Shown here in pieces: positions 10,050-53,900 of a stretch of DNA of 64,000 nt (within the stretch, counting starts at the first letter, position 1; the number at the start of each line of letters is the position of its first letter). The DNA comes from the human T2T-CHM13v2.0 reference genome, Homo sapiens. The notes below the pieces were generated by a model that did not search any database, had not been told where the DNA came from, and worked only from the letters and a program-made list of their open reading frames with translations. Location: the NCBI RefSeq assembly GCF_009914755.1, contig NC_060927.1. One strand, given 5' to 3'. The translations under genes and the position numbers were made by a program.

Positions 10050-13000
10050 TTTTTTTTAAAATTATACTTTAAGTTTTAGGGTACATGTGCACAACGTGCA
10101 GGTTAGTTACATATGTATACATGTGCCATGTTGGTGTGCTGCACCCATTAACTCATCATTTAACATTAGGTATATCTCCTAATGCTATCCCTCCCCTCTC
10201 CCCCAACCCCACAACAGGCCCCGGTGTGTGATGTTCCCCTTCCTCTGTCCATGTGTTCTCATTGTTCAATTCCCACCTACGAGTGAGAGCATGCAGTGTT
10301 TGGTTTTTTCTCCTTGTGATAGTTTGCTGAGAATGATGGTTTCCAGCTTCATCCATGTCCCTACAAAGGACATGAACTCATCATTTTTTATGGCTGCATA
10401 GTATTCCATGGTGTATATGTGCCACATTTTCTTAATCCAGTCTATCATTGTTGGACATTTGGCTTGGTTCCAAGTCTTTGCTATTGTGAATAGTGCCACA
10501 ATAAACATACGTGTGCATGTGTCTTTATAGCAACATGATTTATAATCCTTTGGGTATATACCCAGTAATGGGATGGCTGGGTCAAATGGTATTTCTAGTT
10601 CTAGATCCCTGAGGAACCGACACACTGACTTCCACAAGGGTTGAACTAGTTTACAGTCCCACCAACAGTGAAAAAGTGTTCCTATTTCTCCACAACCTCT
10701 CCAGCACCTGCCATTTTCTGACTTTTTAATGATCGCCATTCTAACTGGCGTGAGATGGTATCTCATTGTGGTTTTGATTTGCATTTCTCTGATGGCCAGT
10801 GATTATGAGCATTTTTTTCATAAGTTTGTTGGCTGCATAAATGTCTTCTTTTGAGAAGTATCTGTTCATATCCTTCGCCCACTTTTTGATGGGGTTGTCT
10901 GGTTTTTTCTTGTAAATTTGTTTGAGTTCATTGTAGATTCTGGATATTAGCCCTTTGTCAGACGAGTAGATTGCAGAAATTTTCTCCCATTTTTTAGGTT
11001 GCCTGTTCACTCTGATGGTAGTTTGTTTTGCTGTGCAGAAGCTCTTTAGTTTAATTAGATCCCATTTGTCAATTTTGGCTTTTGTTGCCATTGCTTTTCG
11101 TGTTTTAGACATGAAGTCCTTGCCCATGCCTATGTCCTGAATGGTATGGCCTAGGTTTTCTTCTAGGGTTTTTAATGGTTTCAGGTCTAACATTTAAGTA
11201 TTTAATCCATCTTGAATTAATTTTTGTATAAGGTGTAAGGAAGGGATCCAGTTTCAGCTTTCTACATATGGCTAGCCAGTTTTCCCAGTACCATTTATTA
11301 AATAGGGAATTGTTTCCCCATTTCTTGTTTTTGTCAGGTTTGTCAAAGATCAGATGGTTGTAGATATGTGGCATTATTTCTGAGGGCTCTGTTCTGTTCC
11401 ATTGGTCTATATCTCTGTCTTTGTACCAGTACCATGCTGTTTTGGTGACTGTAGCCTTGCAGTATAGTTTGAAGTCAGGTAGTGTGATGCCTCCAGCTTT
11501 GTTCTTTTGGCTTAGGATTGACTTGGCGATGCGGGCTCTTTTTTGGTTCCATATGAACTTTAAAGTAGTTTTTTCCAATTCTGTGAAGAAAGTCATTGGT
11601 AGCTTGATGGGGATGGCATTGAATCTATAAATTACCTTGGGCAGTATGGCCATTTTCACGATATTGATTCTTCCTACCCATGAGCATGGAATGTTCTTCC
11701 ATTTGTTTGTATCCTCTTTTATTTCCTTGAGCAGTGGTTTGTAGTTCTCCTTGAAGAGGTCCTTCACGTCCCTTGTAAGTTGGATTCCTAGGTATTTTAT
11801 TCTCTTTGAAGCAATTGTGAATGGGAGTTCACTCATGATTTGGCTCTCTGTTTGTCTGTTATTGGTGTATAAGAATGCTTGTGATTTTTGCACATTGATT
11901 TTGTATCCTGAGACTTTGCTGAAGTTGCCTATCAGCTTAAGGAGATTTTGGGCTGAGAGGATGGGGTTTTCTAGATATACAATCATGTCATCTGCAAACA
12001 GGGACAATTTGACTTTCTCTTTTCTAATTGAATATCCTTTATTTCCTTCTCCTGCCTAATTGCCCTGGCCAGAACTTCCAACACTATGTTGAATAGGAGT
12101 GGTGAGAGAGGGCATCCCTGTCTTGTGCCAGTTTTCAAAGGGAATGCTTCCAGTTTTTGCCCATTCAGTATGATATTGGCTGTGGGTTTGTCATAGATAG
12201 CTCTTATTATTTTGAGATACGTCCCATCAATACCTAATTTATTGAGAGTTTTTAGCATGAAGGTTGTTGAATTTTGTCAACGGCCTTTTCTGCATCTATT
12301 GAGATAATCATGTGGTTTTTGTCGTTGGTTCTGTTTATATCCTGGATTACGTTTATTGATTTGCATATGTTGAACCAGCCTTGCATCCCAGGGATGAAGC
12401 CTACTTGATTATGGTGGATAAGCTGTTTGATGTGCTGCTAGATTTGGTTTGCCAGTATTTTATTGAGGATTTTTGCATCGATGTTCATCAGGGATATTGG
12501 TCTAAAATTCTCTTTTTTTGTTGTGTCTCTGCCAGGCTTTGGTATCAGGATGATGCTGGCCTCATAAAATGAGTTGGGGAGGATTCCCTCTCTTTCTATT
12601 GATTGGAATAGTTTCAGAAGGAATGGTACCAGCTCCTCCTTATACCTCTGGTAGAATTCGGCTGTGAATCCATCTGGTCCTGGACTTTTTTTGGTTGGTA
12701 TGCTATTAATTATTGCCTCAATTTCAGAGCCTGTTATTGGTCTATTCAGAGATTCAACTTCTTCCTGGTTTAGTCTTGGGAGGGTGTATGTGTCGAGGAA
12801 TTTATCCATTTCTTGTAGATTTTCTAGTTTATTTGCATAGAGGTGTTTATAGTATTCTCTGATGGTAGTTTGTATTTCTGTGGGATCGGTGGTGATATCC
12901 CCTTTATCATTTTTTATTGCGTCTATTTGATTCTTCTCTCTTTTCTTCTTTATTAATCTTGCTAGCGGTCTACCAATTTTGTTGATCTTTTAAAAAAAAC

Positions 13001-50937: not shown

Positions 50938-53900
50938 AAGCTTATCCACCATGATCAAGTGGGCTTCATCCCTGGGATGCAAGGCTGGTTTGATATATGC
51001 AAATCAATAAATGTAATCCAGCATATAAACAGAACCAAAGACAAAAACCACATGATTATCTCAATAGATGCAGAAAAGGCCTTTGACAAAATTCAACAAC
51101 CCTTCATGCTAAAAACTCTCAATAAATTAGGTATTGATGGGACGTATCTCAAAATAATAAGAGCTATCTATGACAAACCCACAGCCAATATCATACTGAA
51201 TGGGCAAAAACTGGAAGCATTCCCTTTGAAAACAGGCACAAGACAGTGATGCCCTCTCTCACCACTCCTATTCAACATAGTGTTGGAAGTTCTGGCCAGG
51301 GCAATTAGGCAGGAGAAGGAAATAAAGGGTATTCAATTAGGAAAAGAGGAAGTCAAATTGTCCCTGTTTGCAGATGACATGATTGTATATCTAGAAAACC
51401 CCATCATCTCAGCCCAAAATCTCCATAAGCTGATAAGCAACTTCAGCAAAGTCTCAGGATACAAAATCAATGTGCAAAAATCACAAGCATTCTTATACAC
51501 CAATAACAGACAAACAGAGAGCCAAATCATGAATTAACTCCCATTCACAATTGCTTCAAAGAGAATAAAATACCTAGGAATCCAACTTACAAGGGATGTG
51601 AAGGACCTCTTCAAGGAGAACTACAAACCACTGCTCAAGGAAATAAAAGAGGATACAAACAAATGGAAGAACATTCCATGTTCATGGGTAGGAAGAATCA
51701 ATATCGTGAAAATGGCCATACTGCCCAAGGTAATTTATAGATTCAATGCCATCCCTATCAAGCTACCAATGACTTTCTTCACAGAATTGAAAAAACTACT
51801 TTAAAGTTCATATGGAACCAAAAAAGAGCCCGCATTGCCAAGTCAATCCTAAGCCAAAAGAACAAAGCTGGAGGCATCATGCTACCTGACTTCAAACTAT
51901 ACTACAAGGCTACAGTCACCAAAACAGCATGGTACCGGTACCAAAACAGAGATATAGATGAATGGAACAGAACAGAGCCCTCAGAAATAACGCCACATAT
52001 CTACAACTATCTGATCTTTGACAAACCTGAGAAAAACAAGCAATGGGGAAAGGATTCCCTATTTAATATATGGTGCTGGGAAAACTGGCTAGCCATATGT
52101 AGAAAGCTGAAACTGGATCCCTTCCTTACACCTTATACAAAAATTAATTCAAGATGGATTAAAGACTTAAACATTAGACCTAAAACCATAAAAACCCTAG
52201 AAGAAAACCTAGGCATTACCATTCAGGACATAGGCATGGGCAAGGACTTCATGTCTAAAACACCAAAAGCAATGGCAACAAAAGCCAAAATTGACAAGTG
52301 GGATCTAATTAAACTAAAGAGCTTGTGCACAGCAAAACAAACTACCATCAGAGTGAACAGGCAACCTACAAAATGGGAGAAAATGTTCGCAACCTACTCA
52401 TCTGACAAAGGGCAAATATCCAGAATCTACAATGAACTCTAACAAATTTACAAGAAAAAAACAAACAACCCCATCAAAAAGTGGGCGAAGGACATGAACA
52501 GACACTTCTCAAAAGAAGACATTTATGCAGCCAAAAAACACATGAAAAAATGCTCACCATCACTGGCCATCAGAGAAATGCAAATCAAAACCACAATGAG
52601 ATACCATCTCACACCAGTTAGAATGGCAATCATTAAAAAGTCAGGAAACAACAGGTGCTGGAGAGGACGTGGAGAAATAGGAACACTTTTACACTGTTGG
52701 TGGGACTGTAAACTAGTTCAACCATTGTGGAAGTCAGTGTGGCGATTCCTCAGGGATCTAGAACTAGAAATACCATTTGACCCAGCCATCCCATTACTGG
52801 GTATATACCCAAAGGACTATAAATCATGCTGCTATAAAGACACATGCACACGTATGTTTATTGTGTCATTATTCTCCAATAGCAAAGACTTGGAACCAAC
52901 CCAAATGTCCAACAATGATAGACTGGATTAAGAAAATGTGGCACATATACACCATGGAATACTATGCAGCCATAAAAAATGATGAGTTCACGTGCTTTGT
53001 AGGGACATGGATGAAATTGGAAATCATCATTCTCAGTAAACTATCACAAGAACAAAAAACCAAACACCGCATATTCTCACTCATAGGTGGGAATTGAACA
53101 ATGAGAACACATGGACAGAGGAAGGGGAACATCACACTCTGGGGACTGTTATGGGGTGGGGGGAGGGGGGAGGGATAGCATTGGGAGATATACCTAATGC
53201 TAGATGACGAGTTAGTGGGTGCAGCGCACCAGCATGGCACATGTATTCATATGTAACTAACCTGCACATTGTGCACATGTACCCTAAAACTTAAAGTATA
53301 ATAATAAAAAAAAAAAAAGAAAAGAACTATTGAGCCACAAAAAGAATGAAATCCTGTCATTTGTAGCAACATTGATGGAACTGCAGGTCATTATGTTAAG
53401 TGAAACAAGCCAGGCACAGAAAGACAAATATTACATGTTCTTACTAATACATGAGAGCTAAAAAAGTTGATCTCAGGAAAGTAGAGAGTAGAATGGTGGT
53501 TACCAGAGGCTGGGAAGGGTGTGGGAGGAGGATGAAGAGAGGTTGGTTAATGGGTACAAATATACATTCATATAGAAAAATAAGTTCTAGTGTTTGATAG
53601 CACAGTGAGGTGACTATCATGAACAACAATATATTATATATTTCAAAATAGCTAGAAGAGAAGGTTTGAAATGCTCCCAATACAAAGAAATGATAAATGT
53701 TTCAGGGGTGATAGATATCCCAGATACTCTAACTTGATCATTACACATTTTATGCATGTAGCCAAATAGCACATGTACTCTGTAAATATGTACAATGATT
53801 ATGTATCAGTAAAAAATGTTAAAAAGAGAGAGCATAGGTGAGAGCTCTCTGCTTTTATCTAATGAGCTCCGGACTGCCATACTCCTGGACATGATAGTAG

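What the first reader, a model, noticed from the sequence alone, without database searches (positions are those of the whole stretch)
10050..53323. Two inverted L1s of different age share private mutations: apparent patchy gene conversion across the TMEM45A promoter
Seen: the minus L1 (10050-18390) and the plus L1 (47278-53323) carry identical bases at five sites where my recalled L1PA consensus differs. Plus/minus coordinates: 50101/13263 (AAC-CAG vs AAC-GAG, ETNQN), 50135/13229 (TGGGGC vs TGGGAC, LWG), 51917/11447 (GTCACC vs GTAACC), 52338/11025 (AAACAA vs AAAGAA, AKQ), 53118/10245 (GGACAGAGG vs GGACACAGG). None is a CpG-decay transition, four are transversions, and they fall in four separate patches over ~3 kb with copy-specific differences between patches. 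The ORF1 and 5'UTR of the two copies are of different subfamilies, so common descent from one source element is unlikely. Inference: repeated ectopic pairing and conversion between these inverted repeats.
Basis: partly seen in the sequence, partly recalled or inferred. Interest (0 to 1): 0.85.

Follow-up and report, generated by a model that had tools for sequence, protein, structure and literature searches.

The report
Short gene-conversion patch between inverted L1s
Two oppositely oriented L1 retrotransposon copies on either side of the TMEM45A promoter share a few base changes that are rare among all other L1 copies, most likely because small patches were copied from one to the other during DNA repair, which is a known and ordinary process.

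Summary
The plus L1 (47278-53323) and the minus L1 (10050-18390, interrupted by an SVA) are identical at all five named sites. Each shared allele is rare genome-wide: 27/3352, 13/3118, 190/11909, 128/11771 and 58/9714 exact 25-mer matches. They are not subfamily markers.

Sites 1 and 2 lie 34 bp apart inside a 131-bp perfect match. Only these two copies carry that combination. Descent from one source is excluded, because the copies differ at 74-83% identity in the 5'UTR and ORF1. In the 3' 4 kb the minus copy keeps its older state at 39 of 42 type-separating sites.

Short-tract ectopic gene conversion is therefore the best reading for the site 1-2 patch. Sites 3-5 are weaker. Their identity runs (31-54 bp) are ordinary, and unrelated copies share as many sample-rare alleles with the minus copy. 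There is no long tract and no homogenisation.

Elsewhere in the genome, carriers of these rare alleles also cluster among neighbouring L1s about 20-45 times more than expected. This locus is thus one instance of a general, known kind of process. Direction and date need primate orthologues, which were not available. No effect on TMEM45A is shown.

The parts
47278..53323 (+). Full-length plus L1 (6046 bp) of the youngest type in my sample. It lacks the ~128-bp 5'UTR block and has an 11-bp target-site duplication with one mismatch.
10050..18390 (-). Minus L1: 6172 bp of L1 plus an SVA insert. It is older and chimeric, with one old type up to plus-position 1968 and the next younger type from 2052 on. 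No convincing target-site duplication was found.
14564..16732 (-). SVA element inserted in the minus L1 near the ORF1 end, in the same orientation. It shows hexamer repeats, an Alu-like part, a VNTR, a SINE-R part, a poly-A tail and a 10-bp duplication.
50063..50193 (+). 131-bp stretch of the plus L1 that matches the minus L1 perfectly. It holds shared rare alleles at 50101 (site 1) and 50135 (site 2) and is the candidate conversion patch.
13171..13301 (-). Partner 131-bp stretch in the minus L1, holding sites 13263 and 13229.
51917..51917 (+). Site 3 (minus partner 11447). The shared C is carried by 190/11909 copies genome-wide. A third L1 about 57 kb beyond the plus copy (L037, outside the window) also carries it.
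52338..52338 (+). Site 4 (minus partner 11025). The shared C is carried by 128/11771 copies genome-wide.
53118..53118 (+). Site 5 (minus partner 10245). The shared G is carried by 58/9714 copies genome-wide and by 0 of 35 sampled copies.
14035..14119 (-). Interval in the minus L1 where its type-separating states switch from the old type (last at 14119) to the next younger type (first at 14035).
30293..30602 (+). TMEM45A exon 1 (from the hub's annotation, not tested here). It lies 11.9 kb from the minus L1 and 16.7 kb from the plus L1, inside the 29-kb spacer between the inverted copies.
   Evidence: annotation supplied with the finding

Best explanation
After both elements had inserted, a DNA break in one L1 was repaired using the other L1, 37 kb away and inverted, as template. 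This was non-allelic gene conversion without crossover. It copied a patch of 35 to 131 bp that carried two private mutations of the donor (sites 1 and 2).

Some or all of the three single shared alleles (sites 3-5) may come from further short, older patches. Some could have passed through a third neighbouring L1. The exchange was rare and short: the two copies otherwise keep their own type-specific and private differences.

Shown: the shared rare alleles, their exclusivity, and the separate origin of the copies. Inferred: the repair mechanism, the number of events, and that the two copies were each other's direct donor and acceptor.
For: - The alleles are rare genome-wide, at 0.4-1.6%.
- Sites 1 and 2 co-occur only here. 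None of the 25 other site-1 carriers has the site-2 allele, and none of the 11 other site-2 carriers has the site-1 allele.
- The 131-bp stretch is 100% identical only at the two window copies. The next best genomic hits are 99% (40 of 225 candidates scored).
- The chance that a second given copy carries both alleles is about 27/3352 x 13/3118 = 3e-5 (hand calculation).
- Common descent is excluded. 5'UTR and ORF1 identity is 74% and 80-83%. In the 3' 4 kb the minus copy keeps the older state at 39 of 42 sites that separate its type from the plus copy's type. The trees place the two copies far apart. The plus copy has its own target-site duplication.
- The plus copy shares more sample-rare alleles with the minus copy (4, or 6 with sites 1-2) than with any of 31 other copies (0-3).
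- Four of the five shared changes are transversions. Among alleles shared by control pairs, transversions are about a quarter.
- The pattern is general. Other neighbouring L1 pairs found through the same rare alleles share further rare alleles although their 3' flanks are unrelated where long enough to compare, and they are only 93-95% identical: L004-L005 share 8, L022-L023 share 8.
- Carriers cluster. Site 1 has 6 pairs within 500 kb against about 0.13 expected. Site 2 has 2 against about 0.03. Site 3 has 22 pairs within 100 kb against 0.9 expected among the first 100 of 190 listed.
- Gene conversion between dispersed repeats is documented for neighbouring Alu and for LTRs (passages read in PMC6598467, and PMC8230782).
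Against: - There is no long identical fragment beyond expectation. Runs of 133 and 131 bp are typical for pairs of this identity (median longest run 113.5 bp, 90th percentile 154, in 154 control pairs). The same stretch is also a long run in other pairs.
- Runs around sites 3-5 are ordinary.
- From the minus copy's side the plus copy is not exceptional. It shares 4 sample-rare alleles, while unrelated L034, L003 and L027 share 6, 5 and 5.
- With sites 1-2 left out, 104 of 528 sample pairs share 3 or more rare alleles.
- No type-separating site lies inside the 131-bp patch, so no subfamily mosaic proves transfer and no direction can be given.
- The reference sample was chosen through sites 1 and 2 rather than at random.
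- The pair was picked post hoc.
- No outgroup species or second human assembly could be examined.
Confidence: 0.6

Rival explanations
1. Coincidence. The same five mutations arose independently in both copies, and no sequence was exchanged.
For: - Any two L1 copies share some sample-rare alleles. 0 to 4 is common in 528 pairs.
- Unrelated copies share 5-6 with the minus copy.
- Identity runs are ordinary.
- Each allele occurs in 13-190 other copies, so each mutation does recur.
- The pair was selected after looking.
Against: - Sites 1 and 2 together are found in no other copy. The joint chance is about 3e-5 for a given second copy (hand calculation).
- The plus copy's mean sharing with 31 other copies is about 1.0, against 6 with the minus copy (hand Poisson about 5e-4).
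- 4 of 5 shared changes are transversions, against about a quarter among alleles shared by control pairs.
- Carriers of these alleles cluster among neighbours genome-wide far above expectation. Independent mutation does not predict this.
Confidence: 0.12
2. Common descent. Both copies come from one minor L1 source lineage, or the alleles are markers of an L1PA sub-lineage.
For: Sites 3 and 4 have 190 and 128 carriers, which is not negligible. One other L1 (L029 on contig 8) carries both the site 2 and the site 4 alleles.
Against: - Frequencies are 0.4-1.6%, about what any single recurrent mutation reaches.
- The carrier lists do not overlap apart from the window pair and L029.
- The two copies belong to different steps of the L1 ladder at nearly every type-separating site, and they have different 5' ends.
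- The eight closest 5' relatives of the minus copy carry the common alleles. The one exception is L043, which has the site-2 allele.
Confidence: 0.03
3. Assembly or polishing cross-talk between the two copies in this assembly.
For: None from the calls. It could not be tested because only this one assembly was available.
Against: - The copies differ at 242 of 4513 aligned columns, so long reads should separate them easily (inference).
- Cross-talk would not pick out positions where the copied base is rare in the family.
- The same kind of sharing is seen at other loci.
Confidence: 0.03
4. Indirect regional exchange. Both copies received the alleles from other L1s in the neighbourhood (a stepping-stone spread, perhaps helped by GC-biased conversion) rather than from each other.
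For: - A third L1 about 57 kb beyond the plus copy (L037) carries the site-3 allele inside a 99-bp perfect match to the plus copy.
- An L1 0.6 Mb away (L003) carries the site-1 allele and shares 5 other rare alleles with the minus copy.
- Site-3 carriers form clusters spanning megabases.
- None of the five changes goes from G/C to A/T.
Against: - No other present-day copy has the site 1+2 haplotype, so for that patch the two window copies are the only known partners.
- L037 was fetched because it was in the site-3 list, so its sharing is ascertained.
Confidence: 0.2

Closest known systems
Non-allelic gene conversion between neighbouring Alu elements (Aleshin and Zhi 2010, as described in passages of PMC6598467 and PMC8230782)
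   Same: Dispersed retrotransposon copies of different subfamily share non-diagnostic mutations more often when they are physical neighbours. Short patches are involved and there is no rearrangement.
   Different: Here the repeats are 6-kb L1s, 37 kb apart and inverted. The Alu effect was reported within about 10 kb. The L1 clustering I saw reaches hundreds of kilobases.
Interlocus gene conversion between segmental duplicates or duplicated genes (reviewed in PMC6598467; details of rates recalled, not read)
   Same: One paralogue serves as repair template for the other. Transfer is non-reciprocal, depends on identity and distance, and is favoured within a chromosome.
   Different: The two sequences are not duplicates of one locus but separate insertions. 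They are not homogenised: 242 differences remain in 4.5 kb, and 39 of 42 type-specific states are kept.
L1-L1 non-allelic homologous recombination giving deletions or inversions
   Same: The same substrate: two L1 copies pairing ectopically. An inverted pair such as this one could invert the 29-kb spacer that holds TMEM45A exon 1.
   Different: No crossover product between the plus and minus copies is seen, and the plus copy is of one type throughout. The minus copy's own chimeric structure and missing target-site duplication could be the scar of an older event of this kind with another partner.

Membership tests
Non-allelic (ectopic) gene conversion between dispersed repeats | The two sequences are paralogous copies of separate origin, not one duplicated locus | tested here: met
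   Different 5'UTR and ORF1 (74% and 80-83% identity). Different positions in the L1 ladder. The plus copy has its own 11-bp target-site duplication. The only similarity found beside the elements pairs the minus copy's 5' side with the plus copy's 3' side, at 74%.
Non-allelic (ectopic) gene conversion between dispersed repeats | Shared derived variants that ancestry of the family cannot explain | tested here: met
   The five alleles are at 0.4-1.6% genome-wide. The site 1+2 haplotype is exclusive to the pair.
Non-allelic (ectopic) gene conversion between dispersed repeats | A contiguous tract of unusually low divergence bounded by normal divergence | tested here: inconclusive
   A 131-bp perfect run holds sites 1-2. 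Runs of this length are usual for pairs of this identity. Runs at sites 3-5 are 31-54 bp.
Non-allelic (ectopic) gene conversion between dispersed repeats | Mosaic of subfamily-diagnostic states inside the tract | tested here: not met
   No type-separating site between the two copies' types falls in 50063-50193. Elsewhere the minus copy keeps 39 of 42 older states. The feature is uninformative for the patch rather than contradicted.
Non-allelic (ectopic) gene conversion between dispersed repeats | Orthologues in other species show the acceptor changed while the donor did not | not testable with these tools
   Only this one human assembly could be searched (banner).
L1 subfamily or sub-lineage marker | The allele is carried by many copies that also share the other markers of that lineage | tested here: not met
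   The carrier lists of the five alleles do not overlap beyond the window pair and one copy. Sampled carriers span all types of the ladder.
Inverted segmental duplication | Homology continues through the whole element and into both flanks at similar identity | tested here: not met
   Identity drops from 94.6% to 74-80% in the 5' 1.5 kb. No matching flanks were found.

The most novel reading that the evidence does not exclude
The window pair may be one visible node of a pervasive regional exchange among L1 copies. Rare L1 variants are shared by physically neighbouring copies of different subfamilies 20-45 times more often than expected, out to about 0.5 Mb and in places in megabase-scale clusters. 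That is far beyond the roughly 10 kb reported for Alu. If so, L1s in a chromosomal neighbourhood slowly trade short patches, perhaps with a bias towards G/C alleles. That would blur L1 dating and create local L1 'dialects'.
Probability: 0.3. Interest if true: 0.6.

Novelty: new member of a known kind. Interest (0 to 1): 0.3.

Why it matters
For this locus the result matters little. It shows that two inverted L1s flanking TMEM45A exon 1 have probably paired at least once. They are therefore a possible substrate for an inversion of the 29-kb promoter-bearing spacer. No such event and no effect on the gene is shown.

More generally, patches copied between L1 copies add shared 'private' mutations that would be misread as lineage markers or distort age estimates. 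The strong neighbour clustering of rare L1 alleles seen in passing could be turned into a genome-wide measure of how far and how often dispersed repeats use each other as repair templates.

Tried and rejected
- **Long or recent conversion tract between the two copies: rejected.** The minus copy keeps the older state at 39 of 42 type-separating sites in the 3' 4 kb. It is no closer to the plus copy than to many unrelated copies, segment by segment. The 97-99% identity around 51100-51800 is a generally conserved stretch, since every other copy is also most similar there.
- **Identity-run length as a test: no signal**.
- **Wholesale overwriting of the minus copy's 3' part by the plus copy: rejected.** The 3' part is of the type just younger than its 5' part, not the plus copy's type.
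- **Segmental duplication as the source of sharing between neighbour pairs elsewhere: not supported.** 3' flanks were unrelated in the pairs checked, with one 13-nt chance-level match in L004/L005, and identity was only 93-95%. Most 5' flanks were too short to compare.
- **Regional C>G hypermutation: rejected.** C>G is 8/46 and 11/92 of the private changes in the two copies, against 11% in the pooled sample.
- **A random reference sample of 80 chromosome-1 copies:** The sample used was ascertained through sites 1 and 2.
- **Whether the minus copy's chimeric type is a regular subfamily:** A BLAST across the junction plus 8 small fetches found 1 of 8 top hits with the same old-then-younger combination, and that copy is odd in other ways. 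The question stays open.
- **Khan et al. 2006 on L1PA subfamilies:** not held. Subfamily names are therefore not assigned from any tool.
- **Literature:** four searches turned up no paper on neighbour-dependent L1-L1 conversion in the listings I saw. This is not proof that none exists.
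Full report
**What is there.** The window is human chr3 around the start of TMEM45A.

- The plus L1 (47278-53323, 6046 bp) and the minus L1 (10050-18390) are inverted relative to each other and 29 kb apart. TMEM45A exon 1 (30293-30602, hub annotation) lies between them.
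- BLAST of the plus copy against the window gives 94.6% identity over 4517 bp for ORF2 and the 3'UTR (plus 1524-6036 against 14563-10050). ORF1 gives only 79.6% and the 5'UTR 74.4%.
- The minus copy is 2169 bp longer because an SVA sits in it at 14564-16732. The SVA has the same orientation, hexamer repeats, a VNTR, a SINE-R part, a poly-A tail and a 10-bp target-site duplication.
- The plus copy lacks a 128-bp block of the 5'UTR that the minus copy and the older sampled copies have. From memory this resembles the block lost in the youngest L1PA subfamilies. No tool named the subfamilies.

**The observation.** All five named site pairs are identical in sense orientation. I counted exact 25-mers in the whole assembly, giving the window allele over the window plus common allele:

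| Site | Window allele | Count |
|---|---|---|
| 1 | C | 27/3352 |
| 2 | G | 13/3118 |
| 3 | C | 190/11909 |
| 4 | C | 128/11771 |
| 5 | G | 58/9714 |

The carrier lists do not overlap, apart from the two window copies and one L1 on contig 8 that has the site 2 and site 4 alleles.

**Reference sample.** I fetched 37 L1 copies: the 25 other site-1 carriers, the 11 other site-2 carriers, and one neighbouring site-3 carrier. I also fetched the eight best genomic relatives of the minus copy's 5' 1658 bp. All were projected on plus-copy coordinates. A planned random sample of 80 copies could not be fetched, so the sample is ascertained through sites 1 and 2. Those two sites are left out of the sample-based counts.

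**Different types, no long tract.** Trees for three segments show the usual L1 ladder.
- At 203 sites where five groups along the ladder differ, the plus copy is of the youngest group.
- In the 3' 4 kb the minus copy keeps the older state at 39 of the 42 sites that separate its type from the plus copy's type. It has the young state at 2 and another base at 1.
- Segment by segment, the minus copy is no closer to the plus copy than to many unrelated copies.

There is no large or recent conversion tract and no homogenisation. Descent of the two copies from one source is excluded.

**Are the shared alleles more than chance?**
- In positions 1524-6036, the only alleles shared by the pair and carried by at most 6% of the other copies are sites 3, 4 and 5.
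- Rare-allele loads are 47 for the plus copy and 92 for the minus copy in 4.5 kb, which fits different ages.
- Among 528 pairs of full-coverage copies, 104 share three or more such alleles. Counting transversions only, in 512 pairs (excluding pairs within the old group and the window pair), 8 share three or more and 1 shares four or more. The window pair has three, or four with site 1.
- The plus copy shares 0-3 rare alleles (mean about 1.0) with each of 31 other copies. It shares 4 with the minus copy, or 6 with sites 1-2. A hand Poisson calculation gives about 5e-4 for six.
- Seen from the minus copy, however, unrelated copies share as many: 6, 5 and 5.

**The site 1-2 patch.** The strongest point is the pair of sites 34 bp apart.
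- None of the 25 other site-1 carriers has the site-2 allele, and none of the 11 other site-2 carriers has the site-1 allele.
- The two sites lie in a 131-bp perfect match (50063-50193 against 13171-13301).
- In a whole-genome search this stretch is 100% identical only at these two places. The next best hits are 99% (40 of 225 candidates scored).
- The chance that a given second copy carries both alleles is about 3e-5 (hand calculation).

This needs copying, and since common descent is excluded, a short ectopic conversion patch of 35-131 bp is the best reading. The caveats are that a 131-bp run is ordinary for pairs this similar (median longest run 113.5 bp in 154 control pairs), and that no type-separating site lies inside it. 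There is therefore no mosaic proof and no direction.

**Sites 3-5.** Their identity runs are 31, 43 and 54 bp, against 44 bp expected for a random site. They could be older short patches or coincidences.
- In favour of exchange: four of the five shared changes are transversions, while about a quarter of alleles shared by control pairs are. A third L1 about 57 kb beyond the plus copy carries the site-3 allele inside a 99-bp match to the plus copy, although it was fetched because of that allele.
- Regional C>G hypermutation does not explain the pattern.

**A general pattern.** Carriers of these rare alleles cluster among neighbours across the genome.

| Allele | Distance | Carrier pairs seen | Expected |
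|---|---|---|---|
| Site 1 | 500 kb | 6 | about 0.13 |
| Site 2 | 500 kb | 2 | about 0.03 |
| Site 3 (first 100 of 190 listed) | 100 kb | 22 | 0.9 |
| Site 3 (first 100 of 190 listed) | 500 kb | 60 | 3.0 |

Expectations for sites 1 and 2 are hand products from the background neighbour density.

The neighbour pairs I could inspect are not duplicated segments. Their 3' flanks are unrelated where they could be compared, they are 93-95% identical, and they are partly of different types. Yet they share further rare alleles: L004-L005 share 8, L022-L023 share 8, and three X-linked copies share positions 2245, 2763 and 2824. The window pair is thus one instance of a wider neighbour effect.

**Literature.** Two reviews, of which I read passages, describe such exchange for Alu within about 10 kb and for LTRs, and say that most work was on Alu (PMC6598467; PMC8230782). 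My four literature searches showed no L1 neighbour study in the listings. Reports of L1 gene conversion that I recall were not read here.

**Verdict.** One short conversion patch is well supported. 'Repeated, patchy' conversion is plausible but not shown. The process is of a known kind, and no consequence for TMEM45A is shown.

**The minus copy's structure.** The minus copy is itself a clean chimera.
- It has the old-type state at 55 of 60 type-separating sites up to position 1968, and the next-younger state at 42 of 42 sites from position 2052 on.
- Its eight closest 5' relatives are old-type throughout.
- It has no convincing target-site duplication.

This could be the scar of an older L1-L1 recombination, a template switch, or a rare intermediate lineage. 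It remains open.

Noticed in passing
window 14564-16732 (minus strand): A full SVA element sits inside the minus L1 near the ORF1 end, flanked by a 10-bp duplication. Its SINE-R end coincides with the RefSeq 'enhancer' 14552-15237 listed in the hub annotation.
   Followed up: partly
window 10050-18390, switch between 14035 and 14119: The minus L1 is a clean two-part chimera. It has old-type states at 55 of 60 type-separating sites in the 5' 2 kb and next-younger-type states at 42 of 42 sites in the 3' 4 kb. Its 8 closest 5' relatives are old-type throughout, and it lacks a convincing target-site duplication. Possible causes are an old L1-L1 recombination, a template switch, or a rare intermediate lineage.
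   Followed up: partly
genome-wide (carrier lists): Copies carrying a given rare L1 allele cluster among physical neighbours about 20-45 times more than expected from L1 density. For site 3 there are megabase-scale clusters, for example contig 9 at 19.7-29.0 Mb and contig 2 at 209.1-209.6 Mb.
   Followed up: partly
L022, L023, L024 (contig 23, 130.57-130.64 Mb): Three L1s within 70 kb, two of them of different types in my grouping and the third not typed, share rare alleles at plus-positions 2245, 2763 and 2824. Their 3' flanks are unrelated. This looks like another local exchange.
   Followed up: partly
L037 (contig 3, about window coordinate 110,700, outside the window) and L003 (0.6 Mb downstream): A third nearby L1 carries the site-3 allele, and a fourth L1 0.6 Mb away carries the site-1 allele plus five other rare alleles of the minus copy.
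   Followed up: partly
L046 (contig 15:69615637-69616237): In the 601 bp fetched, this copy has young-type states at three sites but old-type states at four sites within 29 bp (plus-positions 1940-1968). It may be another short patch from an old L1.
   Followed up: no
sites 50101, 52338, 53118: Three of the five shared changes are C/G-to-G/C transversions, a class that makes up only about 11% of private changes in the sampled copies. The numbers are small and this is unexplained.
   Followed up: partly
window 46098-47272 and 53339-53485: The plus L1 lies inside a much older L1 fragment (about 70% identity), which continues on both sides of it. Another old L1 piece abuts the 5' end of the minus L1 (18776-19143).
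   Followed up: no
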